Shown here piece after piece: positions 1 to 17,320 of a stretch of 19,501 nucleotides of DNA. The stretch lies in the UHGV virus genome UHGV-0193858; one strand, given 5' to 3'. Position 1 is the stretch's first letter. Each line of letters begins with the position of its first letter. The stretch is from a virus. Both the position numbers and the translations under genes were made by a program. The notes beneath the pieces were generated by a model. The model was given only the letters and a program-made list of their open reading frames with translations, made no database searches and was not told the DNA's origin.

Positions 1-158
1 ATTGTTTTCACGTCTACGCCTGTCACATCAGCCACCTGCTGCCGGGTAGCGCCGTTCTCCAGCATTCTGCGGCACCGCTCCACCACTTCTTCAGTCATTA
101 TCCGGCGGCGGCCGCCGACTCTCTCCTGCTCCATCGCTGCGGACCGACTCGGATGCAT
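1..158 (-). CDS. Partial CDS: serine-recombinase (Hin/Gin/Pin-type) C-terminal HTH domain; runs off the window start, no catalytic domain found upstream
   Basis: Minus-strand translation from ATG at 158..156 reads MHPSRSAAMEQERVGGRRRIMTEEVVERCRRMLENGATRQQVADVTGVDVKT. The GGR linker followed by G.TRQQVA...GV.VKT matches the invertase C-terminal HTH as I remember it (Hin: GHPRQQLAIIFGIGVSTLYRYFP). An in-frame stop lies at 198..200 and no resolvase catalytic motifs appear in any frame of 160..970. Confidence 0.35.
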   Translation of the reverse strand, partial: MHPSRSAAMEQERVGGRRRIMTEEVVERCRRMLENGATRQQVADVTGVDVKT

Positions 159-168
159 TCGGCAAATT

Positions 169-969
169 CTAGGCCGTGATTTTTCCAATCCTCTCCATCA
201 GATATGCCAGGATGACATCCAGTGTGCTGGTCCCATATGCATATTTGCCGGGGAAAACCAAACATTCTGACAAAACGGATGTTAACGGAGACACTGAACC
301 ATTGCCTGCTCCGCCAATACTCATTTTTTGAGACGGGCTATACGCTGGGATTGTATAGCCCGTCACTTGTCGGCTGGTCACTGCAGACTGATCTGACCGC
401 TGGTATGCAATTGCATAGGATCCAGCAGCCTTGTTAGAGCACATAACTACAGCGCAGAATAAAGATTGCCCTATATTGTTAGGAGTAAATGCCAGATCGG
501 CCTCGATCCCTCCATTCAGAAAAATCGGGAATGAACCTGCTGACGTTGTACGAATGCCGACGCCATGAGGTGTGCTTTCCTGGGTTGCGATAACCGCTCT
601 GTCCTGTGGCGTAGCCGGAAGCGCCCCACCTGGCAGCTGATAGATGAATGCAAAAGTATTGATGTTTGCGTCCATAACCACCGCCGTATCACCAGCCATG
701 CCGGATGCACCGGAGAAATTAAGCCCCTGCAAAACAGAACCATTCAGCTTTGTGGATGGCTCGAGGGTCTCCAGTGACTTGAAAAGTCCGCCATCTAATC
801 GGTTAGAGATAGCTACTACTTTTGCACCAGACCCCATTTTTAGAAACTCTGTCTTCACTGGTGTCCATACTGATGGGGATAGTTCTGAGATCGCTTTCTC
901 TGCCGCTGTTTGTGAGTACACAGGGAGTAAGGGGTTATTCAGTCCAGTTAGTGTGTAAATCAGTCTCAT
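169..969 (-). CDS. Hypothetical protein (266 aa) co-transcribed immediately downstream of the tailspike gene; possible tail-fibre accessory or receptor-binding component
   Basis: Long ORF whose ATG lies 10 nt after the stop of the 687-aa gene, preceded by a GAGGA Shine-Dalgarno on the minus strand. No motif I recognise. Confidence 0.5.
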   Translation of the reverse strand: MRLIYTLTGLNNPLLPVYSQTAAEKAISELSPSVWTPVKTEFLKMGSGAKVVAISNRLDGGLFKSLETLEPSTKLNGSVLQGLNFSGASGMAGDTAVVMDANINTFAFIYQLPGGALPATPQDRAVIATQESTPHGVGIRTTSAGSFPIFLNGGIEADLAFTPNNIGQSLFCAVVMCSNKAAGSYAIAYQRSDQSAVTSRQVTGYTIPAYSPSQKMSIGGAGNGSVSPLTSVLSECLVFPGKYAYGTSTLDVILAYLMERIGKITA

Positions 970-978
970 TTTTTATCC

Positions 979-3042
979 TCAGAAAACGTTAATACGAAAA
1001 GCGGGGAGCCAGTCGTAAAGAGTCACGGATGTGTCATACACCCATATGATTCCAGCGGAAGATCGAACACACCCTCTTGCACCAAGAGTCCGCCCGGAAG
1101 GTTTTACAGATGCGCCGCTCTGAAGTGGGTTTTCTGCTGTCGCATAGGAAACGCGCCCAAAACGTCCAGAGGGGGCGGTCGCCAGGTTAATCAGCACGCC
1201 CTTGCCGTCCGAGCTGATCGCGATGCTCGATATAGCAGGTGGAGCACCAGTCTCATCCGTGTAGCTAAAGCCGTAATTGGCCAGACCGGAGGTGTTGATC
1301 GTAGTCGTGTCCAGCACCAGGTTCGTATACGCTGGGACATTGATTTGTATCTGCGTGGGTGAGTTCCACACGAAACTGGTCGGAACCATCCCTGACCAGC
1401 CGCTCGTAAACCACTCCTGGAGAAGCGCTCTCGCCACAGCTGCTCCGCGCCGGTTCTGGCCCGCACACGTCAAGTGCAGACCGTCTGAAATAAAATCGTA
1501 CTGGTACAAACTATTGACCAGCCTGAATTGCTCTTTTCCGTGCAATCGCGTCGACGCCAGTCGCGCGTACTGGCCTGTAAATGCACCATGCCCGTCATTG
1601 ACATACCCCAGCTGGGTAATGGCGATAATCGGCGGTTCGTTTTGACCCGTTCTTGCGATGATGTCGCTGGTGATTTGTCTCTGGTACTGCCTCATCCGTG
1701 ATTCATACATTCCTTCTCGTAATCCTGACCAGTCCTCGTCGGACTCTCCCTGCATCCAGTCAACGCAGAGAACAATCGGCAGCCAGCCGCGTGCTTTACA
1801 GGCCGTTACGCAGTCTTCGATTGAATCGAGCAGATACTGATATACCTGGTTACCCCGTTTCTGGTACTCGTAAGCCTGACCAGACTGCGCACATACGATT
1901 GATAGCGTGCGCGGCATGATTCCGGTAGCTGCAGCCATATCGCGAATGAAGGTGTTCGCGAGGCCGCTTGCGGCCGTTTCTTTATCTGTCCCACTTACTG
2001 CCTCAACCAGTGGCACCAGAGTAGTGCTGCGTGTCCCTGTACGCCTAACCCCGCCGCTGAGCATGAAAGCGTTATCAGGATATATCGGCGTTGCTGCGAC
2101 AATGGTTTGATCGGCGTCAGGACAATATCCTCGAGCGTTGGATTGCCCAGCAGTCACAAAGATAAAACATACAGGCACTGTCTCTGAGTAGGGGTACACA
2201 GTAGACCCTGACAAATGAAGTCCATACTCAGGGAGCTGGTTGGCATCATCGTCGCCACCACCACCGCCATTTCCGTTATTAACAGCTACCAGGCCACCGT
2301 CTGAGTAAATCCAGTGCTTCCCACCAACCGTATAAGCTTCAACGATCTGGTTTGTGGTTGAATCAACCGTCATCCGCCACACTTTTTCACCGCCAATAAA
2401 CTGCGGTATAGAACCCTCCCGGCCCAGCGCATAGAGTTCGGATTCTTGTTGGGTTAAAAGTTCGTAATATTTTCCGTCAGGACCGATTTGAATTAATCTG
2501 CCGCTTGTATTTAAAAATGGAGCCACGCGGGAAGTCTCCGGATCATATGCTGCCAGGGTCACGCTGTCTGGCGATACCTGGTATGCGTAGTCGTCACGAA
2601 CCATCCGCCGTCCGGTTGGCTGCAGCGTTCCAGCGAGGTTGATATACTCATCGGCCAGAGAGCTTCCGTCCTGACTGCGGACATAGGTTGTTGAACCTGC
2701 CGGAATATTCGCAATATCCGCCTGCGCCGCCGCCAGCGTCATGTACTGCCGGCTGAGAGGGATCAGGTTTTGGCGGGCTTCATCAATAACAGCGTCGGTA
2801 GCAGCTGCCATTTTTTTAGTAGCCCCAATTATCGTATCCTGGGCGTTACCAAAACGATCTATAAAAGTATCGCTTTCGCTGTTCAGGAAATCATCGTACG
2901 CCAGGGCGTTATCATTCAGATCCTTCATGCTATTTGAAGGTCTTGGATTGCCGGTATTATATCTTTTGTCCATACCTGTTCCTGTCTTCATCTTTTCAAT
3001 GAAGCAATTAAGATTGACGCCCCGCCCCTTCAGGGCTAACAT
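979..3042 (-). CDS. Tailspike/tail-fibre protein with a central SGNH/SASA-type carbohydrate esterase domain; true start probably internal (ATG at 2973 or 2991)
   Basis: 687-aa ORF. The central segment VCFIFVTAGQSNARGY carries the GQSN(M)xG nucleophile motif of the SASA/DUF303 esterases, and DGLH near the end of the domain fits the Asp-x-x-His of the triad. A glycine run (NGNGGGGGDDD) precedes it. MDKRYNT at 2973 has an AGGAACAGGT Shine-Dalgarno upstream. Confidence 0.65.
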   Translation of the reverse strand: MLALKGRGVNLNCFIEKMKTGTGMDKRYNTGNPRPSNSMKDLNDNALAYDDFLNSESDTFIDRFGNAQDTIIGATKKMAAATDAVIDEARQNLIPLSRQYMTLAAAQADIANIPAGSTTYVRSQDGSSLADEYINLAGTLQPTGRRMVRDDYAYQVSPDSVTLAAYDPETSRVAPFLNTSGRLIQIGPDGKYYELLTQQESELYALGREGSIPQFIGGEKVWRMTVDSTTNQIVEAYTVGGKHWIYSDGGLVAVNNGNGGGGGDDDANQLPEYGLHLSGSTVYPYSETVPVCFIFVTAGQSNARGYCPDADQTIVAATPIYPDNAFMLSGGVRRTGTRSTTLVPLVEAVSGTDKETAASGLANTFIRDMAAATGIMPRTLSIVCAQSGQAYEYQKRGNQVYQYLLDSIEDCVTACKARGWLPIVLCVDWMQGESDEDWSGLREGMYESRMRQYQRQITSDIIARTGQNEPPIIAITQLGYVNDGHGAFTGQYARLASTRLHGKEQFRLVNSLYQYDFISDGLHLTCAGQNRRGAAVARALLQEWFTSGWSGMVPTSFVWNSPTQIQINVPAYTNLVLDTTTINTSGLANYGFSYTDETGAPPAISSIAISSDGKGVLINLATAPSGRFGRVSYATAENPLQSGASVKPSGRTLGARGCVRSSAGIIWVYDTSVTLYDWLPAFRINVF

Positions 3043-3050
3043 CGCCTTAC

Positions 3051-3338
3051 GTGTTTAAACGGTTAAATAAGAGAATGATTTTAATAAATAAATACACCCC
3101 TCCAACGCAGGAAGATTTAGCCAGACTGAAATCCGCACTAAATTACTCCGGAAACCAAATGGCAGGGCTCGCAGGTGTAGCCAGCGATAGCCAATGGCGG
3201 AAATACACTGGCGGAGAGAGCCCCAGGGTAATGTCAAGACACATACTGTTTTATATTGCAGCTCAGCTTGTTCTGTCTGATGAGCAACTTAACAATGTAA
3301 TAAATAAAATGCGCGATATTGGCGCGGAGATAAAATAA
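3051..3338 (+). CDS. Small XRE-like helix-turn-helix protein (putative regulator); start uncertain (GTG at 3051 or ATG at 3075)
   Basis: 95-aa ORF. The segment SGNQMAGLAGVASDSQWRKYTGGE resembles a Cro/CI-type HTH. Its stop overlaps the acyltransferase start (ATAATG), suggesting translational coupling. Confidence 0.4.
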   Translation: MFKRLNKRMILINKYTPPTQEDLARLKSALNYSGNQMAGLAGVASDSQWRKYTGGESPRVMSRHILFYIAAQLVLSDEQLNNVINKMRDIGAEIK

Positions 3339-4429
3339 TGCTTGGCCTAATAAGGTTTTTTTTGGCATCGTGCGTCATTGCTTTTCACTTAACGGCTCGC
3401 ATACCTGCACTTGGCAACTTTGCAGTGAATTGCTTCTATGTTATTAGTGGTTTTTTAATAACATACATTTTGCATGAAACATACAAGTTCAACTTCTCTA
3501 TGTTTTGGAAAAATAGAATACTGAGGTTATTCCCGGCATATATATTTTTTCTCGTCATGGGCTTTCTTATTATAAAATTAATTCCATCCGCAAAGGAATT
3601 CCACTCAAACTGGACAGGCAATTTCTTACCTGGAGATTTATTAGGAAACCTCTTAATCTTCCCCTGGGCTTTCCTTTCTGATAATGCTGTAGCAAATCCA
3701 TTCGGTGCCTTTTCATCCATTTATCACTTTGCTATTGATGGTAATAGATTCAGAATAGTCACATCATCATGGTCAGTGGGTGTTGAGATAACATGTTATT
3801 TTTTATTGTGGCTTTTCATAGCCCGAAATAAATTTACAGCCATTACGTCGATTCTGCTTTCACTGCTTTATCATGCTTACGTATATGTAGTACACCATTC
3901 TTTTGATATGGCGTATTTCCCATTCCTTGCTGCAACACTTCCTTTTAGCATGGGTTCTCTGGGTTATTTTGCCCATAGAAAGTTCAAAGCTATGTATCTT
4001 TCTCCACACAAAGCTTTTTTAATAACATTTATTTGCATCGGGATTTTTATTACCAATTGGCATTTATATACAATTAATCCATTAGGTCAGTACAACATAA
4101 TACTTTACTACACCAATAATGTAATAGCATTGTTTACAACCCTGGTATTATTAAAAATAAAGACAAACATACATCTTGAGAAAATACTCAAGTGGTTTGG
4201 TGACCTGGCCTATCCAATTTTTCTTTGTCAATATTTTGGTGGATTTCTAGCATGGCTTGCTATTGGTGGTGAAAATCGTGGCTTATCCATCTTTTTATTA
4301 GGCTACCCAATATCAATTGCACTTGGGATCGTTTGTGTAATATTAATAGACAAGCCACTAATTAAAATTAGAGCAAAAATAAGGGCGGACGCTCAAAGCA
4401 AAAATAATCAGGAAAACTCTTCAAGGTAA
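3338..4429 (+). CDS. Acyltransferase family 3 integral membrane protein (polysaccharide O-acetyltransferase-like, Oac/WecH type)
   Basis: 363-aa ORF, strongly hydrophobic throughout. The N-terminus has the family pattern: His in the first helix (CVIAFH) and FYVISGFLIT (FFxxSGFLIT motif). The region is visibly AT-rich compared with its neighbours and lies on the opposite strand to the phage structural genes. Confidence 0.75.
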   Translation: MLGLIRFFLASCVIAFHLTARIPALGNFAVNCFYVISGFLITYILHETYKFNFSMFWKNRILRLFPAYIFFLVMGFLIIKLIPSAKEFHSNWTGNFLPGDLLGNLLIFPWAFLSDNAVANPFGAFSSIYHFAIDGNRFRIVTSSWSVGVEITCYFLLWLFIARNKFTAITSILLSLLYHAYVYVVHHSFDMAYFPFLAATLPFSMGSLGYFAHRKFKAMYLSPHKAFLITFICIGIFITNWHLYTINPLGQYNIILYYTNNVIALFTTLVLLKIKTNIHLEKILKWFGDLAYPIFLCQYFGGFLAWLAIGGENRGLSIFLLGYPISIALGIVCVILIDKPLIKIRAKIRADAQSKNNQENSSR

Positions 4430-5192
4430 ACTAAACCATTCGCTCCTTTTCCTGATGAATAGTTACCATTCCCCCCGGCACCACCTGAGCCGGGGAAACC
4501 GCCATCATCGCCAGAACTACCGAAGTGGCCATTGCCACCCGTTGATGAAAATGCAGATCCTCCAGCCCCGCCAATAAAAGCATCAGAACCATAATACAGA
4601 CCACCTTGAGATATTCCGCCAGTAATATTTAAAATGTTCCCGCCACTTCCGATACCTCCAGCAGGAACTGTAGCCCCGCCACCACTCCCTCCAGTAGCTG
4701 AGATTAAACTCCCGAACCTTGTATCACCACCATTCCCGCCTTTAGACGAGACACCAGCAGCAACAGCACTGCCACCAGTACCTATCGTCACAGATATAGT
4801 TTCGTTATCAGAAATATTAAATAACCCTTCCGAAAATCCACCAGCACAACCTCCAGATGCGCCCACACTAACTGGAGCATTCTGGCCACCTCCCCCGCTC
4901 CCCAAACTTTCACCCGCACTCTTTTCGTCCCTTTAGTTGGAGTGTAAGTCCCTGACTTAGTAAAGGTGACAATATTAAGCAGGCGACCGCCACCAATCGC
5001 TTTAAGAACCTGTGAATCATCATCAGGATCAAGCTCAAGCCCCGCGCCCTCAACAACGTTTACCAGCTCACGCTGAAAGGTATTCATCATCTCAGCATTA
5101 ATTATTGTCGGTGAAATACCATTAGCGACATTACCATTAGTGTATTCACCATTAGCATCAGCGGTGTCAGTTGTACTGCCAACTTTTCTCAT
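4408..5192 (-). CDS. Tail fibre protein (conserved N-terminal domain plus glycine-rich C-terminal domain), split between two frames by a 1-nt frameshift in a G-run
   Basis: ORF 4788..5192 encodes an N-terminus typical of Mu/P2-type fibres (FQRELVNVVEGAGLELDPDDDSQVLKAI ... TFTKSGTYTPTKGTKRVRVKVWGAG). ORF 4408..4905 encodes the Gly-rich continuation in another frame and has a TTG start. Both frames are open across 4788..4932. Adding one G to the GGGGG run (plus-strand C5 at 4892..4896) gives a continuous 261-codon ORF reading ...VKVWGAGGGGGQNAPVSVG... Confidence 0.6.
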
Positions 5193-5218
5193 ATAAACCT
5201 TCTTTTTAAATGTCTGAA

Positions 5219-5893
5219 TTAAACGTAACCGGAAGCGATATCAAATATTTTGGCAAACTCAGGCGTGACTTCGTAAACCCCCTCATCGTTAAAACCGAAA
5301 TAGATATAGCCGAATTTGACCAGGGTGTATGAGGGGGCGAGGGCATTAATCCGGCATTCAAGCTGACGATTACCCCAGGAACGTAATGGATCGCCACAAT
5401 AACTCAGACCCGCACGGGCATAAGTTATCGTTGTGTCTTCCGCCTCTACCAGCCAGACAAATGGCCAGTCATCCCCATTTAGCCCGTCACCACATACCGA
5501 TAAGCCAGCACGCGCCTGCCGGTATTCCTTAATCGAAATCGTATAACCCATTGCTGCGGCAATACTGATGAAATAGCTCTTTGACTGCCCGCCGGTACTG
5601 ATGAGTTTCGATACAATGTCAGACTGACGCTTCGCAATCGTATCCACTTCGCCAATCGAGCAATCATCAGGTAAGCCGAGTGTTTTTTCCCACTCGGTGA
5701 GCATAATCGTCGCAGTTTTTGGAAAGGCACCGCGCAGCAATGCAAGTGCGTCGTTATCACTTCGCTGGAAACTGGCCGCAATGGCCCGCAGTACAGCGGC
5801 CTGAACAGCTTTTGGATCCCGTGTCCACGCTCGGCCGGTGGGGATAAGCGCCTGCAGTGCCTTCTGATAATCGTCTGTTGAGAAAAGGCTCAT
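5219..5893 (-). CDS. Phage tail protein, DUF2313 family (Mu gp48 / P2 gpI / e14 YmfQ-like)
   Basis: 224 aa, position directly after the J-like gene, and the N-terminal pattern LIPTGRAW ... LTEWEKTLGLP typical of this family. Its start overlaps the J-like stop. Confidence 0.7.
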   Translation of the reverse strand: MSLFSTDDYQKALQALIPTGRAWTRDPKAVQAAVLRAIAASFQRSDNDALALLRGAFPKTATIMLTEWEKTLGLPDDCSIGEVDTIAKRQSDIVSKLISTGGQSKSYFISIAAAMGYTISIKEYRQARAGLSVCGDGLNGDDWPFVWLVEAEDTTITYARAGLSYCGDPLRSWGNRQLECRINALAPSYTLVKFGYIYFGFNDEGVYEVTPEFAKIFDIASGYV

Positions 5894-7038
5894 GTGTAGT
5901 TCACCTCACCACGAACAGCCAGCTCCCCAACTCCCGGCTCAATATTCGCAGAAGGCGACACAAGGATATAACCTGAAGTACCGGCAACATCCCCTATCGC
6001 ACGGTTGAGATCTGAAAGGTAAATTTTCCCTGTGCCGAGCGGGTTAGCGGATTCAAACAATACCCCGTCAATCGCATCAGCAATGGCCGCAGTCGTTGCG
6101 CTGTCGGCATCAGATATCCCGCCTATTTCAAAATCGATAACGCGTTCGATGGGAGAGCAGACATAGTTAAGGGAAGTAACCGGCGCAAGCGGATACATAT
6201 AATCGGCAACTCTCCCCTGATCCCCGGTGGCTTTTACAGCCCCCCACTCTTCCAGTTGAGAGACACCGTCAGTTCCTACAGGGAATCCATGATTGGTTTT
6301 ATCATCGCCGTCGCACATGATGTAAATCACCACGGTACCCGGCCCCATCCCCCGGCGCCGTATCCATGCCCTGGTAATCCCCGACACGGATAAAGCCCAG
6401 CTTTTATAATCAGTGTCACTCCCGCCCTGCGGGGGATTCTGATACGCCAGCAGACCACGTAATCGGAAATCCTCTTCACTTTCAATGTTGGCGCCGCCGG
6501 TGGCGGGCTCAATCAGCGTAACCGAGCTGTCTATGCCGGGGGCATTAGCATCCAGTGTAAGAATGGTGCCAGCATCGGCATTTCCGGAAGCGCCTCCTCC
6601 TGTCACATCGTCTGTGATATCCGGCAAAACCGCTGTTACAGCAACCGACGCACTGCCAGCAGTGTTTATCGTTATGGCATCATCGGTTGTGTACTGGTAA
6701 CCATCATCACGGTTTAACACCGCCCCTTTTGACAGTGTTTTCCCCGGCGTTCCGGTAACGGTCGCCGCCGGAGAGCGTGCTGCCGTTGCGGCTTTTCGGT
6801 AAATCTGCTTTAGCGCCATCCATCCGGCAAGCCACTCATCGGTAGAGGTGAAAGGCGTGCTCTGACGGGCAATATAATCCAGGTAGGCGTAGTGCAGATG
6901 GGCCATGCCCGCATCCATATCAGCGAGCACCTTAAGGTTGCCAAACCGTAACAGCGCGCCAACACTTTCAAGCTCTGCCTGCATAAACTGGCGATTCTCC
7001 TGCCGGAGCTCGCTCAGTGTTTTCCGCTTAAATGGCAT
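5890..7038 (-). CDS. Baseplate J-like protein (Mu gp47-like)
   Basis: 382 aa, placed between the gp46-like and DUF2313 genes, with overlapping stop/start codons on both sides as in Mu-type baseplate operons. Confidence 0.75.
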   Translation of the reverse strand: MPFKRKTLSELRQENRQFMQAELESVGALLRFGNLKVLADMDAGMAHLHYAYLDYIARQSTPFTSTDEWLAGWMALKQIYRKAATAARSPAATVTGTPGKTLSKGAVLNRDDGYQYTTDDAITINTAGSASVAVTAVLPDITDDVTGGGASGNADAGTILTLDANAPGIDSSVTLIEPATGGANIESEEDFRLRGLLAYQNPPQGGSDTDYKSWALSVSGITRAWIRRRGMGPGTVVIYIMCDGDDKTNHGFPVGTDGVSQLEEWGAVKATGDQGRVADYMYPLAPVTSLNYVCSPIERVIDFEIGGISDADSATTAAIADAIDGVLFESANPLGTGKIYLSDLNRAIGDVAGTSGYILVSPSANIEPGVGELAVRGEVNYT

Positions 7039-7477
7039 TATTCAGTTGCTCCCATAGCCAGAAGAATTTGAACTCCTGCCAGTCCCCCGCCGGCGGCAAA
7101 TACCGGATGATGAGGTTCAGCCTATTCGGGAAAACAATCTCTGACTGAGCCTCTATCGCTGCTGCAATACCATCCGACTTCATCCAGGCCAGAGCCTCTT
7201 CGGCATAATCTTCAGCTCTCATCGCCACTTCGCGCGTCAGTTTTTCACGCCGCAGTAGCCACAGCCTTGAGCCAATATTCCGGTCGTTGTCCAGATCCCC
7301 CCACCAGCCGCGGCGGTCAGTTCCTTCATAATCATCATCAGCGCGCGCCAGTCCGTCAGTAAACAAACTGATAATTATGGCCGTGTGCATATCATTCTCA
7401 GATGTCAGTACGCCGTTACCGGTTTGCCAGTCAGCATGAATGGCATCCACATCCCAGAATGAGGAAATATCACTCAT
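7028..7477 (-). CDS. Baseplate protein, GP46 family (Mu gp46 / P2 gpW-like)
   Basis: 149 aa, with N-terminal W..DL....GDL and a TAIIISLFTD segment as I remember for GP46-family proteins. Position between the V-like and J-like genes. Confidence 0.65.
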   Translation of the reverse strand: MSDISSFWDVDAIHADWQTGNGVLTSENDMHTAIIISLFTDGLARADDDYEGTDRRGWWGDLDNDRNIGSRLWLLRREKLTREVAMRAEDYAEEALAWMKSDGIAAAIEAQSEIVFPNRLNLIIRYLPPAGDWQEFKFFWLWEQLNNAI

Positions 7478-8055
7478 ACCTGACTCTCTGTTTTTTCGCT
7501 TATGATCGTGCTATCGCCGGACTGAACTTTTTTAACGTCATGGTCATGATCGTTGTGAGCATCCCGCAGCGCTTTGAGCGTTGAATTGTTCGTCTCGCAG
7601 TTATCGATGATGTCACCCGTCACCAGGAGTTTGGGGGTAACCAGCTTTACCTGTTCCGTTGCCGTCGCGGTGATGTTTCTGGCATTATTGATCTCTACAT
7701 CTTTGCCTTTCGCATCAATGAAAATTCCCTCCTCGGTCAGATGAATATTCATCCCCTGCTGGTTATAGACCACGGTTTCGCCTGGCTTAAGCCCGGTATA
7801 CCGGAAGCTTTGATGGTTAGAGGCAATGACGACAGGACTGGAGCGGTCCCCGCCGAGAAAGGCAATAAGCACATCCGATCCCGCCGGTAACCCCGATGAA
7901 AAACCAAAATCAGAGAGCCGTGGGGCGCTGGCCACTTCCAGCGGAGTCTGGTACTGGATTTCCTGCACAACCCCGCTATCTTTCTGCGTGGTAATACGGC
8001 CAATGCCCAGCATGCCGGCGATGCGCGTGGCCGATTTCTTTAAATTTTGATTCAT
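7474..8055 (-). CDS. Baseplate assembly protein V / central spike (Mu gp45-like)
   Basis: 193 aa, size and position after the hub gene, and a C-terminal histidine cluster (HNDHDHD) reminiscent of metal-binding spike tips. Confidence 0.65.
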   Translation of the reverse strand: MNQNLKKSATRIAGMLGIGRITTQKDSGVVQEIQYQTPLEVASAPRLSDFGFSSGLPAGSDVLIAFLGGDRSSPVVIASNHQSFRYTGLKPGETVVYNQQGMNIHLTEEGIFIDAKGKDVEINNARNITATATEQVKLVTPKLLVTGDIIDNCETNNSTLKALRDAHNDHDHDVKKVQSGDSTIISEKTESQV

Positions 8056-9137
8056 TGGTTTAGTCCGGGTATTTGCTGGTAGAAAGCATAAGGCTGGACA
8101 GCGAAAGCCTCCGGGGGCATCAGATAAAGGCGCGCATGGGTGCCGTCACTGTCTCTGATATAAGTCACCTCTGCGATAAGCAATTCGGTGTCAGGCAGCT
8201 GCAGACTCGGGATGTTGACCGGGATAAGCGTATTCGGCTCCCATAATTTCCCGGATTTATCGCGCCAGGAATCAATCGTCACCGTTAACTGACGGGAACG
8301 GCCGTATCGGCGGTTCATCTCCCAGTCAATCGCTCGCTGAGCCTGTTGTGAAGCCATCAGTGTACTTTCAACAATAATGATCCGTTTTCGGTAACGCATA
8401 CTGGCCGCCTCAGGATCGCGGGCCGTCGCCAGCGTCACCGAATCATAAGCCGTATCTGGCGAGAATCCTGCAATCGGCGAAATGCTCATCGATACGCCGA
8501 CGTAATCAGAAAAGCGGTCAGCCATCGAACGGCGGTAATAAGCCTGTTCGATATTTACCCCTTCTGCGATACCGCTGGCCGCGCGCTTTGTCCCCACCCG
8601 GGTCAGAAATAAGTTACCGTCAGGCTGATCGTAATAAAGCAATGCCGACCAGCGGGAGACACGATCAAGTATTTCCTGTGGCGATTCCCCCCAGTTCAGG
8701 GAAAATTGCGGAACTTTCACCAGATCATCAACGTCTGTACTTACGCCAATGTTGTAATGGGATGCGAGGCGGGAGGCTATATCAAGCGCATTACTGTTAT
8801 TGATGACGTTATTTGGCCATTCAGCAGAGCAATCAACGAGATCTGCGCACTTACTGCGGCCTGAGGCTCTGACTTCATGGCGCGAACGGGAAATAGCAGG
8901 CGACCAGTCATCAACATACCCCGTCACTACCAGGTCGTTACCAAGCTTTACCTGACAAGGCATCCCTTCCTTTACCAGCTGCTTCTGGTCACTTCCCGGA
9001 AAATAATCCATCAGTCCCAGGTCAAAATCGGAGGGAAAACGCTCAATGCCACGGGTCACCCGCACAGAGTCCCATCCTTCAATGATTTTTCCGCCCACTG
9101 TCAGGGAGACAATATCCTGATCATTATCCGTACTCAT
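8052..9137 (-). CDS. Baseplate hub / tail protein (Mu gp44, P2 gpD-like)
   Basis: 361 aa, lying immediately upstream of the V-like, gp46-like and J-like genes in Mu order. Called from position and size; I do not recall a diagnostic motif. Confidence 0.6.
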   Translation of the reverse strand: MSTDNDQDIVSLTVGGKIIEGWDSVRVTRGIERFPSDFDLGLMDYFPGSDQKQLVKEGMPCQVKLGNDLVVTGYVDDWSPAISRSRHEVRASGRSKCADLVDCSAEWPNNVINNSNALDIASRLASHYNIGVSTDVDDLVKVPQFSLNWGESPQEILDRVSRWSALLYYDQPDGNLFLTRVGTKRAASGIAEGVNIEQAYYRRSMADRFSDYVGVSMSISPIAGFSPDTAYDSVTLATARDPEAASMRYRKRIIIVESTLMASQQAQRAIDWEMNRRYGRSRQLTVTIDSWRDKSGKLWEPNTLIPVNIPSLQLPDTELLIAEVTYIRDSDGTHARLYLMPPEAFAVQPYAFYQQIPGLNQ

Positions 9138-9520
9138 TGTCTCAACACCTTCATCGTCGTCGGCATAAATGCCGGATGCGGTACGCTGGCCTCCTGTATC
9201 AGTTCATTTGCCCGCGAGGCATCCTGATACAGGCGGTTGGCCAGTACCAGGGCAGGAACCGGCACCGCAGTATTGATTTGCATCAACTCACTCAGTCCGG
9301 ATGAAGTCTGAGCCATGGTATTCAGAAAAGCGGTTCTCACGTCCATCAATGCCGTATAAAGATCATCATCGCCACGGTCGCCCGCCAGTAGTAACGCGGT
9401 ATCCAGTTGCCCGGCCACGCGTTGAGTGATTTCTTCGGCCTCATTACGACTGGTTGGGTTGTAATCTGCAGCAGCATCCGTCATGGCTCCGGTACATAGC
9501 ACTACGATCAGCGTGTTCAT
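9134..9520 (-). CDS. Probable C-terminal remnant of the tail gene upstream of the hub (Mu gp43-like?), truncated by a deletion
   Basis: 128-aa ORF translationally coupled to the hub gene (ATGA overlap). Its frame is closed by a stop about 20 codons upstream of the first ATG. Its 5' end overlaps the 3' end of the decoration-protein ORF by 77 nt. Confidence 0.35.
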   Translation of the reverse strand: MNTLIVVLCTGAMTDAAADYNPTSRNEAEEITQRVAGQLDTALLLAGDRGDDDLYTALMDVRTAFLNTMAQTSSGLSELMQINTAVPVPALVLANRLYQDASRANELIQEASVPHPAFMPTTMKVLRQ

Positions 9521-9953
9521 GGTGCCAGCCAGTTGCTGGCTGCTTTCGGAACGCTGGTAAAGGTGCCTGGGCGCTGTCTTTCAGGAAGATGGCCAGCGGA
9601 CGTAGTGCTGTTTTCAGTTCCGGCGCAGTCCAGGAATCGTCAAAAATAATATGATTCTGGTTGAACTCGCCCATCAGGTACAGGCCGCCGGACTGATCGC
9701 CATGGGTGGAAGCGTCAACATCATCAACCAGAATGGCCGCTGGCGTCTCGCTACCATCCGTTGCGGTTTTCACACTGGCTGTATATTTGCCACTGGCGGT
9801 GATCATGCCAAGCACAGTGCCACGCTTATACACACCGCCGGTGATCGTGCCGGTGTCAGTGACCAGTTGCAGCGTACCGGCAATTAACTGATCCGGCACA
9901 AACACTGAACTCTTCATGCCAGGTGCAAAGGCATTCTGACCAAATTGATCCAT
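9444..9953 (-). CDS. Head decoration protein (lambda gpD-like) with an aberrant C-terminal extension
   Basis: The first ~125 aa resemble lambda gpD in length and pattern (TDG ... GILV ... GGLY ... W, ending ...LAIFLKDS). The last ~40 aa (AQAPLPAFRKQ...CCCRLQPNQS) have no counterpart and overlap the next ORF. Confidence 0.55.
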   Translation of the reverse strand: MDQFGQNAFAPGMKSSVFVPDQLIAGTLQLVTDTGTITGGVYKRGTVLGMITASGKYTASVKTATDGSETPAAILVDDVDASTHGDQSGGLYLMGEFNQNHIIFDDSWTAPELKTALRPLAIFLKDSAQAPLPAFRKQPATGWHHEHADRSAMYRSHDGCCCRLQPNQS

Positions 9954-10543
9954 TATTTCTCTCCTTTAATGGAGTTGTAGAGGCCGGTCATCTGGTTTAC
10001 CAGTGCCGATTTACCGTTCTCTTTCTTGCCGCCATCCGGATTCAGACGGACATCATGGCTTTCCTGCATGCGCTGATCGAGAGAGCGCCCGCGCGTTGCC
10101 TTTGGTTGCAAGGCTGGCGCCGTGGATGCCAGAACATCGATAGCGGCGGTAGAGCTCATCCCGGTATTGAATGCGAGTGAAGCGGCCAGTGACGGATTCG
10201 CCGCAGCGTGCTTACTGCCGAAGATACGGGCGCAACGTTTACGCTCGGCGGCGCGGGCATTTTTCACCGCTTTGCTTTCTTTGCGGTCATCGTCGCCGTC
10301 ATCTTCGGAATCGTCATCGTCTTCAGCCGCATCCAGGTCGTCACCGTCATCTTCAGCGTCATCATCACGATCGTCGTTTTCCGCGTCATCTTCGCGTTCA
10401 TCGTCCCCGGCATCATCTTCGCGCTCATCCTCTTCCGCGCGACGGCCTTTCGCTTTTTTGGCCTTTTTGTCCTCTTCCTCTTCGGAAGCAGTCGCGCCAC
10501 GGCCAATAAGATGAGCAAAACTAAAAGTCTTTTTCTTCGCCAT
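9953..10543 (-). CDS. Head scaffolding protein (lambda Nu3-like C-terminus) with a ~70-residue acidic Asp/Glu-rich insert; start taken at MAKKK
   Basis: The C-terminal segment AAERKRCARIFGSKHAAANPSLAASLAFNTGMSSTAAIDVLASTAP aligns with the lambda C/Nu3 C-terminus as I recall it. The ATG at 10543 lies 2 nt after the protease stop. The ORF track extends the start to 10627, overlapping the protease. Confidence 0.55.
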   Translation of the reverse strand: MAKKKTFSFAHLIGRGATASEEEEDKKAKKAKGRRAEEDEREDDAGDDEREDDAENDDRDDDAEDDGDDLDAAEDDDDSEDDGDDDRKESKAVKNARAAERKRCARIFGSKHAAANPSLAASLAFNTGMSSTAAIDVLASTAPALQPKATRGRSLDQRMQESHDVRLNPDGGKKENGKSALVNQMTGLYNSIKGEK

Positions 10544-10544
10544 T

Positions 10545-11411
10545 TCAGGCTCCTGTTTTTTCAAGTAAGTTTCTGAACGCAGCATCAGGAGGACACACCT
10601 CATCAGCCAGTCCAAGTTCCACACCATCAGCAGCCATAAAACAGGCAGCCTGAGTACTTTTGATAACCTTTGCGCTAATCCCCCGATTTCTGGCGACGGT
10701 ATTCACAAACAATTCGCCCATGGTGTTGATGTCCTGCTGAATAGCCGCCAGCGCTTCATCTGACAGCTCTCTCAGCGGTGCCCCCTCAGCCTTACGGGAA
10801 CCGTAGGTGATGATGGTGACTTTGAGGCCGTCATCTTTTATCCGCTGGGTCCAGTCAAGGTGCATAGTGATCACACCAACTGAACCCACACCACCGGTTC
10901 GGGGAACAGAAATCCGGTCCGCCGCACTGGCAATCGCATAGGCGGCGGAATAGGCGCTTTCCGTCAGAATGGCATGGATGGGCTTTTTCCCGCGGGCGCC
11001 ATAAATGACATCGACCAGATCGAAACATCCGGCGACCTCGCCTCCTGGCGAATCAATATCCAGGCAGATCCCTGTAATATCGGGGTCTTCCATCGCAGTC
11101 AGGAAGGCCTGACGAATGCCGTCATAGCCTGTCATGCCACTGTATGGGCGCAGGCTACCCAGCTTCTGCACCAGGGTCCCACATATCGGGATGACAGCGA
11201 CGCCCAACACATTGTCATAACCCGGGTCGCTACGGGATTCCCGCCCCCTGTTATCGTCGTATCCATACCAGTCATCATCCATGGCAAGAGAGGATTCGAT
11301 TTTACTGATGCCAAACCGGTCCATAACGGATGCCATGATGACTTCAGCTTTACTTGGGTGCAGCGCCAGCGGTGTATTAAAAAGGCGCTGGGCCAGATGA
11401 GGTAGATTCAC
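10545..11411 (-). CDS. Prohead protease, S49 (ClpP/SppA-like) family, lambda gpC N-terminal domain-like
   Basis: 288 aa. LRPYSGMTGYDGIRQAF ... ICLDIDSPGGEVAGCFDLVDVI closely matches the lambda gpC protease domain (LQPYSGMTGYNGI ... LLDMDTPGGMVAGAFD). Confidence 0.85.
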   Translation of the reverse strand: MNLPHLAQRLFNTPLALHPSKAEVIMASVMDRFGISKIESSLAMDDDWYGYDDNRGRESRSDPGYDNVLGVAVIPICGTLVQKLGSLRPYSGMTGYDGIRQAFLTAMEDPDITGICLDIDSPGGEVAGCFDLVDVIYGARGKKPIHAILTESAYSAAYAIASAADRISVPRTGGVGSVGVITMHLDWTQRIKDDGLKVTIITYGSRKAEGAPLRELSDEALAAIQQDINTMGELFVNTVARNRGISAKVIKSTQAACFMAADGVELGLADEVCPPDAAFRNLLEKTGA

Positions 11412-13042
11412 TTTTCCTCCGGATCGGTAATTGTCTGGCTGGCGAACTGGTCCGCCTGCGCCCAGCTAGGTAATGGAAGTCCGCGCTTCAGGCAGGACTC
11501 AATTTCCCGCTGGCGCTGATCAAGTATCTCTTCCCAGTCCTCACCCACGTTTTCACCCACTTCAATTTCGAGAGTGGAAAGGCCGGCATCGAGGCCGAGA
11601 ATGGCGCCTTTTTTCTCTGCCACCGGATCAACCCATCCTCGCCCCGGCCCCATCCAGCGCGCACGGGAATACGCTGCCCGGGCATCAACAAAATCAGGGG
11701 CATCATTAGGTAGAGGTAAATCCTCGTTATCGTGAACTTCCTCCACAAAGGCCGTCAGAAGCGGCTGAGCGGTACCCATGGAGAAATCATCACGTCGGCG
11801 GGTGAGCGTTTTCCATGCCTCCAGCAAGGAAGATCGCGCAGAGCTGTAATTCACATCAGACCAGTCCTGTGTAACCTGCTGAGGAGATAACCCCGTACCG
11901 GATGAGAAATTACGCAATACTGCAGACTCGAAAACCTCAAAGTTGCTGTAAGGGCGGGCAGCGTTGACCGTTGTTATTCTCTCCCCTGGATAAAGGATCG
12001 GCATACGGGCGCCATTCTGCAGCGTCAAACGGCGATCATTATGAAACTCTGCACGACCATCCTGGTATGCTCCCAATCCCTCTTCGAAGTTTTCCCCCAG
12101 CGCGGACTGGATCATTTCGGGATCGTATGGAGACTCAATATACGCGGCGAAGATAGCATTCAGAATTGCTGCTTCCAGCTCGCTCTGGTCGTACTTCACC
12201 AGCATCTTCAGACGTTGCACTACTGGAGTCAGAATGCCATTCCCCCGATGCTGAGCTCCACGCTCATGGTCAAAGTCGTGCACAACGTGCGGGCGCCCCC
12301 ATGCGGTTTCGCGCGGGATTCGTCGCCATGTCATTGTTTTGGCGCCACTCCACCAGTCACCGATATGTGCTTCACGTATGTGATAAGCCACAGGTGCGCC
12401 GTCAGCATCAATTTCAACGCCGCCGCGGATATTCGGCATATCAAAATTCTGCTGCGGGTTACTGAGTCTGTCGGGATCAACAACCTGCACCGTCGTGGCA
12501 TAACGCCCCTTACCTGGTCCAAGGCGATCGGTGCGATACTGAAGCACCATCAGGGCATCGCCATCAATCAGCTTGTGGCGAAAGGCCAGACGCAACATTT
12601 GTGGAACGGTTAGCTTGCGCTCAACGTCACAATAACGGCCTGTGTCGTATGCCCAGGTTCTCCAGTGGGAAGCGAGTGCTTTTCCGTACTCTTCCGCCCA
12701 TACTGCGTCAAAACTTTTATTACCTGTCATCATCCGTAATACACGATAGTCAGGCTTCATGATCGGACGGAAATTGGCGCCGACCGCATTATCAAGCAGG
12801 CGAGTTATGGCACCATTGGCCCATCCATCATTTCGGACCAGATCCCGCGCACGGGAAACTATACGGTCACGGTAGATATTAATTTCGTTATCCGGTGACC
12901 ATAGTGCGGGCTGCCAGTTCGCCAGTTGATCGCTGAAGGAATCCCCGGCGTCATATGGCACCCGGCTACCGCCCGTCAACATGCTGGGTTTTGGTGCCTG
13001 ATAAGGTCTCCCGTCAGGACCAAGGATTTGCACTTTATTCAT
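11408..13042 (-). CDS. Portal protein, lambda gpB-like
   Basis: 544 aa. ARDLVRNDGWANGAI matches lambda gpB ADDLVRNNGYAANAI. Size and position between the gpW-like and protease genes. Confidence 0.85.
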   Translation of the reverse strand: MNKVQILGPDGRPYQAPKPSMLTGGSRVPYDAGDSFSDQLANWQPALWSPDNEINIYRDRIVSRARDLVRNDGWANGAITRLLDNAVGANFRPIMKPDYRVLRMMTGNKSFDAVWAEEYGKALASHWRTWAYDTGRYCDVERKLTVPQMLRLAFRHKLIDGDALMVLQYRTDRLGPGKGRYATTVQVVDPDRLSNPQQNFDMPNIRGGVEIDADGAPVAYHIREAHIGDWWSGAKTMTWRRIPRETAWGRPHVVHDFDHERGAQHRGNGILTPVVQRLKMLVKYDQSELEAAILNAIFAAYIESPYDPEMIQSALGENFEEGLGAYQDGRAEFHNDRRLTLQNGARMPILYPGERITTVNAARPYSNFEVFESAVLRNFSSGTGLSPQQVTQDWSDVNYSSARSSLLEAWKTLTRRRDDFSMGTAQPLLTAFVEEVHDNEDLPLPNDAPDFVDARAAYSRARWMGPGRGWVDPVAEKKGAILGLDAGLSTLEIEVGENVGEDWEEILDQRQREIESCLKRGLPLPSWAQADQFASQTITDPEEK

Positions 13043-13305: not shown

Positions 13306-13313
13306 GGTTTTCC

Positions 13314-16092: not shown

Positions 16093-16192
16093 AAAATAAA
16101 AGTTTGTAGCTAGGAAAACACTGCGGCGCGCAATGCCCGTGCCTTACAAAAGTCTCAGGAAGGACCCAAACCCTATGGGGTAGGTATTCAGG

Positions 16193-17313: not shown

Positions 17314-17320
17314 TTCTTTG

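What the first reader, a model, noticed from the sequence alone, without database searches (positions are those of the whole stretch)
3043..4430. AT-rich moron cassette (HTH protein plus acyltransferase-3) inserted antisense in the tail-fibre locus
The sequence at 3340..4430 is conspicuously AT-rich against GC-rich flanks, as judged by eye. It encodes a multi-pass acyltransferase-3 protein preceded by a small XRE-like HTH ORF whose stop overlaps its start, and the pair runs opposite to all structural genes. This is typical of a laterally acquired lysogenic-conversion gene (O-antigen or capsule acetylation). Its 3' end overlaps the 3' end of the tail fibre gene by 22 nt (convergent), so the insertion also separates the fibre gene from the tailspike gene.
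Basis: partly seen in the sequence, partly recalled or inferred. Interest (0 to 1): 0.5.

Follow-up and report, generated by a model that had tools for sequence, protein, structure and literature searches.

The report
Prophage sugar-acetylation cassette with its own regulator
A decaying E. coli prophage carries an intact, AT-rich membrane acyltransferase gene behind a small DNA-binding regulator, placed backwards between its tail-fibre and tailspike genes; this is an ordinary kind of surface-sugar "conversion" gene, but its regulator, promoter and fibre linkage are unusually informative.

Summary
The gene at 3338-4429 has GC 0.352 (GC3 0.327), against about 0.52 for the rest of the window (z = -5.3). 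It is a full-length Acyl_transf_3 protein with the family's R-X10-H and RxxR motifs and ten long predicted helices. An 87-aa gene precedes it. Its true start is ATG 3075, not GTG 3051. It has no Pfam hit but belongs to a conserved family with an XRE-type fold. The pair is antisense to every structural gene, and the acyltransferase overlaps the fibre 3' end by 22 nt.

New points:
- The pair has a conserved sigma-70 promoter (3014-3042) with a dyad in its spacer, which suggests autoregulation.
- The HTH gene is a conserved "head". In other Enterobacterales it precedes unrelated glycan-modifying genes (AT3, hexapeptide acetyltransferases, GT2, GT4, Wzy+GT25).
- The exchanged unit is the acyltransferase plus the fibre C-terminal domain, not HTH plus acyltransferase.
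- The neighbouring tailspike is an acetyl-esterase.
- Two independently decayed forms of the prophage both keep this block.

The same architecture was described in Serratia phage BZS1 (PMC7556043). Verdict: a new member of a known kind. No function has been demonstrated.

The parts
3014..3042 (+). Sigma-70-type promoter of the cassette (TTGACG-N17-TAACAT)
   Evidence: The consensus scan finds it. It aligns with a conserved TTGACA-N17-TATTAT promoter upstream of the homologous unit in BZS1, Serratia L027 and L091. The same motif occurs at the equivalent position in 22 of the 34 comparison loci scanned.
3022..3038 (.). Dyad (operator-like) element in the promoter spacer. It is partly degenerate here (CCGCCCC-TTC-AGGGCTA) compared with the consensus TAGCACC-N3-GGGGCTA.
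   Evidence: Across 19 loci, 86.5% of cells are complementary, against 17-51% when the partner column is slid, and one pair covaries (CG/GC/AU). The dyad variant tracks the residues at the start of the HTH recognition helix. In the window only 4 of 7 pairs are kept. Binding is inferred, not shown.
3075..3338 (+). 87-aa XRE-fold HTH protein gene (phrog_20491, function unknown)
   Evidence: 87 homologues at 55-72% identity, typically 87 aa, with an invariant WRKYTGG..PR motif. The AF2 model has pLDDT 88 and five helices. All top Foldseek PDB hits are XRE-fold proteins (Aca10, Aca1, HigA, C.AhdI, 434 Cro), but E is at least 0.046. No Pfam, NCBIfam or PADLOC hit.
3338..4429 (+). AT3-only membrane acyltransferase (363 aa), the AT-rich cargo gene
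   Evidence: Pfam PF01757, 57.1 bits, full length. phrog_3333 O-acetyltransferase. R6-X10-H17 and R60-x-x-R63 are conserved (motifs as defined in PMC9558356). AF2 pLDDT 93.3 with ten long helices. Nine hydrophobic segments. GC 0.352.
4408..4429 (.). 22-nt overlap of the convergent 3' ends of the AT3 and fibre genes
   Evidence: ORF coordinates. The same 22-nt overlap is kept in L091, a phage with a different baseplate type, and in E. coli ES2 and 20KM2222. No terminator was predicted here.
4408..5192 (-). Tail-fibre gene: N-terminal anchor plus glycine-rich C-terminal domain. It is frameshifted in this window at the C5 run 4892-4896.
   Evidence: Gly_rich_2 scores 23.9 bits, just under the cut-off. 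PHROG tail-fibre families match. The gene is an intact 261 aa in HS. The 1-nt gap is shown. The C-terminal domain is exchanged together with the AT3 gene.
979..2973 (-). Tailspike/tail-fibre protein with a SASA (SGNH-type acetyl-esterase) domain, divergent from the cassette
   Evidence: Pfam SASA, 44.6 bits, aa 294-542 of the 687-aa ORF. phrog_4201 tail fiber. The N-terminal anchor is 44% identical to the BZS1 virion protein p27 (mass spectrometry in PMC7556043). GQSN and DGLH motifs are visible in the translation.
169..969 (-). 266-aa ORF downstream of the tailspike, in the position of BZS1 virion-associated protein p28
   Evidence: Synteny with BZS1 p28 and with the 801-nt ORF of Klebsiella phage ST16-OXA48phi5.2. 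No family hit.

Best explanation
This is the lysogenic-conversion locus of a Mu-tail/lambda-head-type temperate phage, kept intact inside a decaying prophage of E. coli HS-like strains.

Proposed mechanism:
- A sigma-70 promoter (3014-3042) drives a two-gene, translationally coupled operon that runs antisense to the late genes.
- The first gene encodes an 87-aa XRE-fold protein. It most likely binds the dyad in its own promoter spacer and holds expression at a low, steady level. This is the logic of C-proteins of restriction-modification systems and Aca proteins of anti-CRISPR operons.
- The second gene encodes an AT3-only, ten-helix inner-membrane acyltransferase. It takes an acyl (probably acetyl) group from cytoplasmic acyl-CoA and puts it on an extracytoplasmic glycan (O-antigen, capsule or similar).
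- The modified glycan is most likely the structure read by the co-inherited glycine-rich fibre domain and/or processed by the neighbouring esterase tailspike. The lysogen would thus change its surface towards phages of the same receptor class.

What is shown:
- composition bias;
- AT3 family membership and motifs;
- conservation of the promoter and dyad;
- the variable-cargo pattern behind the HTH gene;
- co-exchange of the AT3 gene with the fibre C-terminal domain;
- retention of the block in decayed prophages.

What is inferred:
- DNA binding by the HTH protein;
- expression in the lysogen;
- the acyl donor and the acceptor glycan;
- any effect on phage adsorption.
For: - AT3 identity and integrity.
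- Foreign composition. Cargo genes behind homologous HTH genes are mostly also AT-rich (0.33-0.42 against 0.44-0.52 for their loci; one Wzy gene is not).
- Own promoter conserved across genera, with a dyad in the spacer. The dyad type tracks the recognition-helix residues.
- XRE fold.
- The HTH gene is followed on the same strand by AT3 (Lonsdalea, two Serratia, Symbiopectobacterium, L091, Klebsiella), hexapeptide acetyltransferases (3 loci), GT2, GT4, and Wzy_C+GT25 (2 loci). Every identifiable cargo in Enterobacterales is an envelope-glycan enzyme.
- These cassettes sit convergent to tail-fibre or fibre-assembly genes at prophage ends.
- The same slot in related E. coli prophages holds a co-oriented AT3 or an antisense gtrA-gtrB cluster followed by a large unannotated gene in the gtrC position.
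- Promoter and HTH are 100% identical between E. coli and Klebsiella, while AT3 plus the fibre C-terminus are replaced. L091 shares HTH, AT3 and fibre C-terminus.
- Two different deletion derivatives at the tRNA-Ser locus both keep the same region (orf266, tailspike, HTH region, AT3); the annotated orf266 and AT3 proteins are identical, the tailspike accessions differ. The region 2900-4500 is present in 32 of 5426 complete genomes at 95% identity or more.
- BZS1 has the same gene order, and its esterase tail protein p27 was found in virions.
Against: - There are no expression, binding or chemistry data.
- The HTH protein has no Pfam hit, and the Foldseek E-values are weak (at least 0.046).
- The window's dyad is degenerate, with 4 of 7 pairs kept. 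Autoregulation may be weakened here.
- The small-ORF/HTH pair also occurs with no cargo at all in Klebsiella-type lambdoid prophages. In Burkholderiales it sits next to unrelated genes (DHPS, PALP, resolvase). The HTH protein is therefore not tied to glycan genes by necessity.
- The same AT3 allele occurs with at least three tailspike types (SASA esterase, CotH-type, unknown). Esterase and AT3 are not an obligatory pair.
- Co-exchange of AT3 and the fibre C-terminus could reflect simple adjacency.
- E. coli O9 polymannan is not known to me to be O-acetylated (own knowledge).
Confidence: 0.7

Rival explanations
1. The HTH protein is not a dedicated regulator of the acyltransferase. It is the surviving half of an older two-gene unit: a 57-aa coiled-coil/C-terminal-TM protein followed by the HTH protein. 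That unit would work as a toxin-antitoxin-like, exclusion or membrane-signalling module, and the AT3 gene merely uses its promoter.
For: The small-TM ORF precedes the HTH gene in 51 of 89 sequences scanned. The pair occurs without any cargo. Fold hits include HigA antitoxins. A conserved GC hairpin plus T-run (-13 to -18.6 kcal/mol) separates the two genes. The BZS1 authors state they have 'no clue' about p25/p26.
Against: The window, Klebsiella L094, and the Lonsdalea, L025, L026 and L028 loci lack the small ORF but keep HTH plus cargo. The HTH protein therefore stays useful without it. There is no PADLOC hit for either protein. The dyad lies in the promoter that also drives the cargo, so the HTH protein would control the cargo in either case.
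Confidence: 0.2
2. The acyltransferase modifies a glycan unrelated to phage receptors (peptidoglycan, enterobacterial common antigen, osmoregulated glucans or colanic acid). Its benefit would be host physiology or immune evasion, not phage exclusion.
For: AT3-only enzymes act on all these substrates (PMC9558356). The AT3 allele is not tied to one tailspike type. The block is retained in prophage remnants that can no longer make virions, which points to host-level selection. The closest homologue in an isolated phage is only 28% identical.
Against: There is a constant convergent linkage to tail-fibre genes across several phage types. The AT3 gene is co-replaced with the fibre C-terminal domain. 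The same slot is occupied by gtr genes (gtrA, gtrB and a large gene in the gtrC position), a classical O-antigen conversion operon.
Confidence: 0.2
3. The cassette is an inert remnant of a dead prophage, and its AT-richness only reflects membrane-protein composition.
For: The element lacks the major capsid, tail sheath/tube and early genes. Its integrase is truncated and its fibre frameshifted.
Against: GC3 is 0.327 against 0.51-0.65, so synonymous sites are biased too. The ORFs are intact, and the AT3 protein (and orf266) is identical in two independent decay forms. All family motifs are kept. The promoter is conserved.
Confidence: 0.05

Closest known systems
Serratia phage vB_SspM_BZS1 genes p23-p28 (Bujak et al. 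2020, PMC7556043)
   Same: Same gene order: Mu-type baseplate, short fibre, then an antisense AT3 and an antisense HTH gene, then a divergent tail protein with an acetyl-esterase domain and a virion-associated protein. The HTH protein is 67% identical. The tailspike N-terminus is 44% identical. The promoter is homologous. The authors already proposed a deacetylase for entry and an acetylase for conversion, and noted that HTH/TM pairs sit next to acetyltransferases in Serratia prophages.
   Different: The AT3 proteins are barely related (E = 0.018). The fibre C-terminus is different. BZS1 keeps the 57-aa TM ORF and the hairpin, which the window has lost. BZS1 is a viable phage; the window is a remnant.
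Oac / OacB-type O-antigen acetyltransferases of Shigella phage Sf6 and relatives (AT3-only serotype converters)
   Same: AT3-only architecture. The RxxR motif is essential in Oac (PMC9558356). The gene is transcribed opposite to the structural genes and lies at the edge of the tail region of a temperate phage (as cited in PMC7556043).
   Different: Sequence similarity to Oac was not measured here. No HTH head gene is described for oac in the papers read here; the oac locus was not examined. The acceptor sugar of the window's enzyme is unknown.
OafB (GtrC of prophage BTP1) and gtrABC conversion operons next to tailspike genes
   Same: A prophage glycan-modifying gene next to the receptor-binding protein. 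The modification blocks the phage's own tailspike (PMC9558356). gtr genes (gtrA, gtrB and a large gene in the gtrC position) occupy the same slot in a related E. coli prophage.
   Different: OafB is an AT3-SGNH fusion. gtr operons are phase-variable through Dam/OxyR (own knowledge). The window's 2974-3074 region has no GATC (read). Here control appears to rest on an XRE-type protein.
Controller (C) proteins of restriction-modification systems and Aca proteins of anti-CRISPR operons
   Same: A small XRE-fold protein encoded first in a mobile operon, with a palindromic operator in its own promoter controlling a potentially harmful downstream gene. These are the top structural neighbours of the model (Aca10, Aca1, C.AhdI, C.Kpn2I).
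   Different: There is no detectable sequence relationship (best profile hit against PDB sequences E = 0.06). The cargo is a glycan enzyme. Binding is not demonstrated.
Esterase tailspikes (phage G7C gp63.1, Vi-phage tailspikes)
   Same: A virion receptor-binding protein with an SGNH/SASA-type acetyl-esterase domain. The Vi-phage and phage c341 precedents are cited in PMC7556043. G7C is from own knowledge.
   Different: There is no sequence hit to any solved structure. The substrate is unknown. Here the esterase gene lies back-to-back with an acyltransferase operon.

Membership tests
Acyltransferase-3 (PF01757, AT3-only class) | Profile match above the curated threshold over the whole domain | tested here: met
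   57.1 bits against 31, residues 4-336 on profile positions 6-323 of 326. phrog_3333 O-acetyltransferase, E = 5.8e-22.
Acyltransferase-3 (PF01757, AT3-only class) | R/K-X10-H motif in TM1 and RxxR motif in the first cytoplasmic loop (PMC9558356) | tested here: met
   R6...H17 are nearly invariant, and R60 and R63 invariant, among 25-28 homologues.
Acyltransferase-3 (PF01757, AT3-only class) | About ten transmembrane helices and no fused SGNH domain | tested here: met
   The AF2 model (pLDDT 93.3) has ten long helices. There are nine hydrophobic 19-mers at KD of at least 1.4. The protein ends at residue 363 with no extra domain.
Acyltransferase-3 (PF01757, AT3-only class) | Transfers an acyl group to an extracytoplasmic glycan | not testable with these tools
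   This needs NMR or mass spectrometry of LPS, capsule or ECA with and without the gene.
XRE / lambda-repressor-like HTH regulators | Match to an HTH_3-type sequence profile | tested here: not met
   No Pfam or NCBIfam family at E of 0.01 or better. The best PDB sequence-profile hit is AcrIF24, E = 0.06.
XRE / lambda-repressor-like HTH regulators | Five-helix fold with helix-turn-helix at helices 2-3 | tested here: inconclusive
   AF2 pLDDT 88, five helices. All 50 listed Foldseek hits but a few are XRE-fold proteins (TM to target up to 0.84, rmsd 1.6 A over 58 columns for Aca10), yet no E-value is below 0.046.
XRE / lambda-repressor-like HTH regulators | Binds a palindromic operator | not testable with these tools
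   A conserved 7-3-7 dyad lies in the promoter spacer, and its variants track recognition-helix residues. This is suggestive only.
Phage moron (independent, compositionally distinct transcription unit between genes that are adjacent in related phages) | Distinct base composition | tested here: met
   GC 0.352 against 0.52, z = -5.3.
Phage moron (independent, compositionally distinct transcription unit between genes that are adjacent in related phages) | Own promoter | tested here: met
   A predicted promoter is conserved across genera. Transcription itself was not measured.
Phage moron (independent, compositionally distinct transcription unit between genes that are adjacent in related phages) | Own terminator | tested here: not met
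   No terminator-like site lies at the 3' end, and the ORF overlaps the fibre gene by 22 nt.
Phage moron (independent, compositionally distinct transcription unit between genes that are adjacent in related phages) | Flanking genes adjacent in a related phage | tested here: met
   In Klebsiella phage ST16-OXA48phi5.2 the fibre gene is followed after 22 nt by the homologous esterase tailspike (78-84% nucleotide identity) with no cassette. Its baseplate module is of another type, so it is not a close isogenic comparison.
SGNH/SASA acetyl-esterase tailspike | SASA profile match and catalytic Ser (GQSN) and His (DxxH) blocks | tested here: met
   PF03629, 44.6 bits against 24.8. AGQSNARG and SDGLHLT are seen in the translation. 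Activity was not tested.

The most novel reading that the evidence does not exclude
The 87-aa protein and its promoter-dyad form a widespread, undescribed 'expression head' for interchangeable surface-glycan-modifying genes in prophages of Enterobacterales, Pseudomonas and Burkholderiales. The ancestral form also has a 57-aa TM protein and an internal terminator hairpin. In this phage lineage the acyltransferase and the fibre's receptor-binding domain are exchanged as a matched pair, welded together by overlapping 3' ends. An esterase tailspike sits alongside as the eraser. Together these would make a writer/reader/eraser set for one acetyl mark on the host surface.
Probability: 0.35. Interest if true: 0.6.

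Novelty: new member of a known kind. Interest (0 to 1): 0.4.

Why it matters
Acetylation of O-antigen or capsule changes serotype, vaccine epitopes and phage susceptibility. This cassette occurs in the commensal reference strain E. coli HS and in about 30 other complete genomes. It survives while the rest of the prophage decays, which suggests the host benefits from it.

Two features could be useful beyond this locus. First, the conserved HTH/promoter head could serve as a search handle for finding prophage glycan-modifying genes of any enzyme family. Second, the co-exchange of acyltransferase and fibre domain offers a way to pair receptor-binding proteins with the chemical mark they read. That would help predict phage host range.

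Tried and rejected
- Invertible-segment idea (Mu G-segment-like, because a Pin/Gin-type recombinase lies at the prophage end in relatives). No convincing inverted repeats flank the cassette in the window, L089 or L090. Dropped.
- I first read GCCCC-TTCA-GGGC at about 3028-3040 as a remnant of the conserved terminator hairpin. The alignment shows it is the promoter spacer and dyad instead.
- Strict pairing of the AT3 gene with an esterase tailspike is rejected. The same AT3 allele occurs with CotH-type and unknown tailspikes.
- GC3 cannot mark the fibre N/C junction, because both parts have GC3 of about 0.33.
- No hit came from NCBIfam, from PADLOC, from Foldseek of the AT3 model against the PDB, or from a sequence search of the tailspike against the PDB.
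- A tblastn of the AT3 protein against isolated phages found nothing closer than 28%.
- I fetched the wrong side of the L37 prophage. That call was uninformative.
- Literature searches found no study of this HTH family beyond the BZS1 remark.
- No GATC sites occur in the 2974-3074 control region (read), so there is no sign of Dam/OxyR-type phase variation.
Full report
**What is in the sequence.** In 300-nt windows the stretch 3301-4350 has GC 0.32-0.38, between flanks of 0.47-0.58. The ORF at 3338-4429 has GC 0.352 and GC3 0.327. The structural genes have GC 0.51-0.56 and GC3 0.51-0.65. No other 1092-nt window of the sequence falls below 0.422, giving z = -5.3. Two plus-strand ORFs, 3051..3338 and 3338..4429, share a TAATG stop/start overlap. 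The second overlaps the 3' end of the minus-strand ORF 4408..4905 by 22 nt. Every other long ORF is on the minus strand.

**The acyltransferase.** The 363-aa product matches Pfam Acyl_transf_3 over its whole length (57.1 bits against a cut-off of 31) and PHROG 3333, 'O-acetyltransferase'. In alignments with 24-27 homologues, R6 and H17 (the R/K-X10-H motif of TM1) are nearly invariant and R60 and R63 (the RxxR motif) are invariant. The motifs are defined in PMC9558356. An AlphaFold model (pLDDT 93.3, pTM 0.91) has ten long helices, and a hydropathy scan finds nine hydrophobic segments. There is no fused SGNH domain, so this is an AT3-only enzyme. No solved structure resembles it.

**The small gene.** It gives no Pfam, NCBIfam or PADLOC hit. 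It does belong to a conserved family: 87 hits at 55-72% identity, nearly all 87 aa, with an invariant WRKYTGG..PR motif. NCBI names some members 'XRE family transcriptional regulator', and PHROGs lists the family as phrog_20491 with unknown function. The homologues and RefSeq (WP_024186701.1) fix the start at ATG 3075, not GTG 3051. An AlphaFold model (pLDDT 88) has five helices. Its Foldseek neighbours in the PDB are almost all XRE-fold proteins (Aca10, Aca1, HigA, C.AhdI, C.Kpn2I, 434 Cro, lambda repressor), but the E-values are no better than 0.046. 'XRE-like HTH' is therefore supported at fold level only.

**Where the window comes from.** It is 99.97% identical to a prophage remnant next to tRNA-Ser/mtfA in E. 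coli HS. The element has lambda-type head genes (terminase, gpW, portal, S49 protease, decoration protein). These abut Mu-type baseplate genes (gp44-48). The major capsid, sheath, tube and tape-measure genes and the whole early region are missing, and the integrase is truncated. Intact relatives exist at other chromosomal sites. The region 2900-4500 occurs in 32 of 5426 complete E. coli genomes, always chromosomal.

**The neighbours.** The minus-strand gene 979-2973 starts at 2973, as shown by RefSeq and by the BZS1 homologue. It has a conserved tail-anchor N-terminus and a SASA (SGNH-type acetyl-esterase) domain (44.6 bits), with GQSN and DGLH blocks visible in the translation. It matches PHROG tail-fibre families. 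The fibre gene 4408-5192 has an N-terminal anchor and a glycine-rich C-terminal domain. In the window it is split by a 1-nt deletion (C5 instead of C6 at 4892-4896) relative to HS, ES2 and 20KM2222.

**The same architecture is already in the literature.** Serratia phage vB_SspM_BZS1 has this order: Mu-type baseplate, short fibre, antisense AT3 (p24), antisense HTH (p25), an antisense 57-aa single-TM ORF (p26), then a divergent tail protein with an acetyl-esterase domain (p27) and a virion-associated protein (p28). Bujak et al. (PMC7556043) found p27 and p28 in virions by mass spectrometry. They proposed that the esterase serves entry and the acetylase serves conversion. They also noted that p25/p26-like pairs always sit beside an acetyltransferase in Serratia prophages, and wrote that they had 'no clue' about p25/p26. 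The window's HTH protein is 67% identical to p25. The tailspike N-termini are 44% identical and the esterase parts 26%. The two AT3 proteins are essentially unrelated (E = 0.018).

**A conserved promoter and dyad.** Aligning the window's 2960-3090 with BZS1, Serratia L027 and L091 shows that 3010-3074 is homologous to the promoter and leader that precede the small TM ORF in those loci. The window lineage has lost that ORF and the following hairpin, so the HTH ATG now sits about 30 nt after the -10 box. The promoter is TTGACA-N17-TATTAT (TTGACG-N17-TAACAT in the window, also found by the scan). It recurs at the equivalent position in 22 of the 34 comparison loci scanned, from Enterobacterales, Pseudomonas, Bordetella and Burkholderiales.

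Its spacer holds a 7-3-7 dyad, TAGCACC-N3-GGGGCTA. Across 19 loci, 86.5% of cells are complementary, against 17-51% when the partner column is slid, and one position covaries (CG 13, GC 4, AU 1). The dyad variant goes with the residues at the start of the predicted recognition helix:
- ASNS with GCACC/GGGGC;
- SDGR with GGCCC/GGGCC;
- AGGE with GACCC/GGGTC;
- AGGQ with GCCCC/GGGGC.

Shared ancestry confounds this pattern, but it is what a protein binding its own promoter would give. In the window only four of the seven pairs survive (GCCC...GGGC), and the helix reads ASDS. I infer that the HTH protein autoregulates the operon. This is not shown.

**The HTH gene is a conserved head with variable cargo.** I examined 77 loci from a one-genome-per-species scan, plus loci found by exact-protein look-ups. 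The gene that follows on the same strand differs from locus to locus. In Enterobacterales every cargo that could be identified is an envelope-glycan enzyme:
- AT3 (Lonsdalea, Serratia quinivorans, BZS1, Symbiopectobacterium long form, L091, Klebsiella);
- hexapeptide acetyltransferases (Scandinavium, Citrobacter, Buttiauxella);
- GT2 (Buttiauxella);
- GT4 (Salmonella arizonae);
- Wzy_C plus GT25 (Kosakonia, Enterobacter).

The cargo is usually AT-rich relative to its locus. These cassettes typically lie convergent to tail-fibre or fibre-assembly genes at a prophage end. Against a strict link, the TM-ORF/HTH pair stands alone between Q and the lysis genes in Klebsiella-type lambdoid prophages. 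In Burkholderiales the neighbours are miscellaneous. The 57-aa TM ORF is found upstream in 51 of 89 sequences scanned. It is separated from the HTH gene by an invariant GCCCC-tetraloop-GGGGC hairpin with a T-run (-13 to -18.6 kcal/mol).

**What is actually exchanged.** Between the window and a Klebsiella pneumoniae prophage (L094), the promoter and HTH gene are identical at every nucleotide. The baseplate and fibre N-terminus (4922-7100) are 98.5% identical. The AT3 gene diverges from its first codons (77 differences in 198 nt; 49% protein identity overall). The fibre C-terminal domain is of another subtype. The replaced block is therefore 3338-4921: the AT3 gene plus the fibre receptor-side domain. 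Conversely, L091 has a different baseplate type (Phage_Wedge1, Sheath_initiator). It shares the 3' two-thirds of the HTH gene, the AT3 gene (64% aa) and the glycine-rich fibre domain with the window (3143-4989 at 68% nucleotide identity). It also keeps the same 22-nt overlap. Adjacency alone could explain co-transfer. Still, the overlapping 3' ends make the two genes hard to separate, and a functional match (the enzyme modifying what the fibre reads) is a reasonable inference.

**The slot.** In related E. coli prophages the same position after the fibre gene holds other conversion genes. Strain MB51 has a co-oriented AT3 with no HTH gene. Strain D53-1 has antisense gtrA and gtrB (GT2) genes followed by a large unannotated gene in the gtrC position. 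Klebsiella phage ST16-OXA48phi5.2 has the fibre gene followed directly by the homologue of this esterase tailspike (78-84% nucleotide identity) and the orf266 homologue, with no cassette. The same AT3 allele occurs with SASA-esterase, CotH-type and unknown tailspikes. The esterase and the acyltransferase are therefore frequent neighbours rather than an obligatory pair.

**Retention.** At the same tRNA-Ser site there are two different deletion derivatives. The HS type keeps head and baseplate genes and has lost the early region. The 13P484A type keeps the Dam methylase, RacR-type repressor, ParB and an intact integrase, but has lost the baseplate and head genes. Both keep the same region (orf266, tailspike, HTH region, AT3). 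The annotated orf266 and AT3 proteins are identical; the tailspike carries different protein accessions. This points to selection on the block in the host.

**Mechanism and limits.** The best-supported model has four steps.
1. In the lysogen the 3014-3042 promoter drives the HTH and AT3 genes.
2. The HTH protein damps its own promoter.
3. The AT3 enzyme acylates an exported glycan.
4. Late transcription from the fibre side runs antisense through the cassette to reach the tailspike. No separate minus-strand promoter was predicted in 2974-3100.

The acceptor glycan, the acyl group, expression and any exclusion phenotype are all untested. E. coli O9 polymannan is not known to me to be acetylated (own knowledge), so capsule, ECA or colanic acid remain possible.

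**Verdict.** It is a new member of a known kind. The conserved HTH/promoter head and the AT3-fibre co-exchange are the parts worth following up.

Noticed in passing
window 17411-17547 and the window ends (1 / 19501): The window is a circular permutation of the E. coli HS element. Positions 1-17547 equal HS locus L001 17102-34649 (99.97%). Positions 17411-19501 equal L001 15010-17101 (97.9%), so the window end abuts the window start. The tRNA-Ser copy is an attP-like junction. No complete E. coli genome (0 of 5426 at 80% coverage or more) and no IMG/VR contig carries this junction. It may be an excised circle, a tandem copy, or an artefact of how the record was built.
   Followed up: partly
window 4892-4896 (minus-strand fibre gene 4408-5192): A homopolymer run is C5 here but C6 in HS, ES2 and 20KM2222. 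This splits the 261-aa fibre into 134-aa and 165-aa ORFs. It could be a real inactivating mutation, slippage or a sequencing error.
   Followed up: partly
L087 6790-7000, L006 5787-6000, L027, L091 and about 50 other loci (absent from the window): A conserved 54-58-aa protein (coiled coil plus a C-terminal TM helix; phrog_6330/9071, unknown function) precedes the HTH gene. It is followed by an invariant GCCCC-tetraloop-GGGGC hairpin with a T-run 10-15 nt before the HTH start. This looks like an internal attenuator or terminator.
   Followed up: partly
window 9134-9953: The head decoration gene and a 128-aa ORF directly abut the Mu gp44-type baseplate gene. Intact relatives carry about 7.8 kb more here (major capsid, sheath, DNA-circulation genes). 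This is an internal deletion in the HS-type element.
   Followed up: partly
window 1-140 (minus strand) and L090 907-1455: RefSeq annotates a partial HTH-domain protein at the window start. Intact relatives have a 182-aa serine recombinase (Pin/Gin-like) there. No invertible segment could be identified.
   Followed up: partly
window 979-2787 against L103 (Klebsiella phage ST16-OXA48phi5.2) and Escherichia phage AV124: The esterase tailspike body and orf266 are 78-84% identical at DNA level to genes of a K. pneumoniae ST16 prophage. They are about 80% identical to a gene of a 145-kb E. coli phage. This suggests a shared receptor glycan between E. coli O9-type strains and Klebsiella.
   Followed up: no
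L105 (E. coli 13P484A) against L001 (HS): Two alternative deletion derivatives of one ancestral prophage sit at the same tRNA-Ser site. One keeps late genes and the other keeps early genes. Both retain the tailspike-HTH-AT3 block.
   Followed up: partly
L089 2912-5074, L100 2945-4876: Some relatives carry a tailspike with a CotH-kinase-like domain (66-71 bits) in place of the esterase. This is an unusual domain for a phage receptor-binding protein.
   Followed up: no
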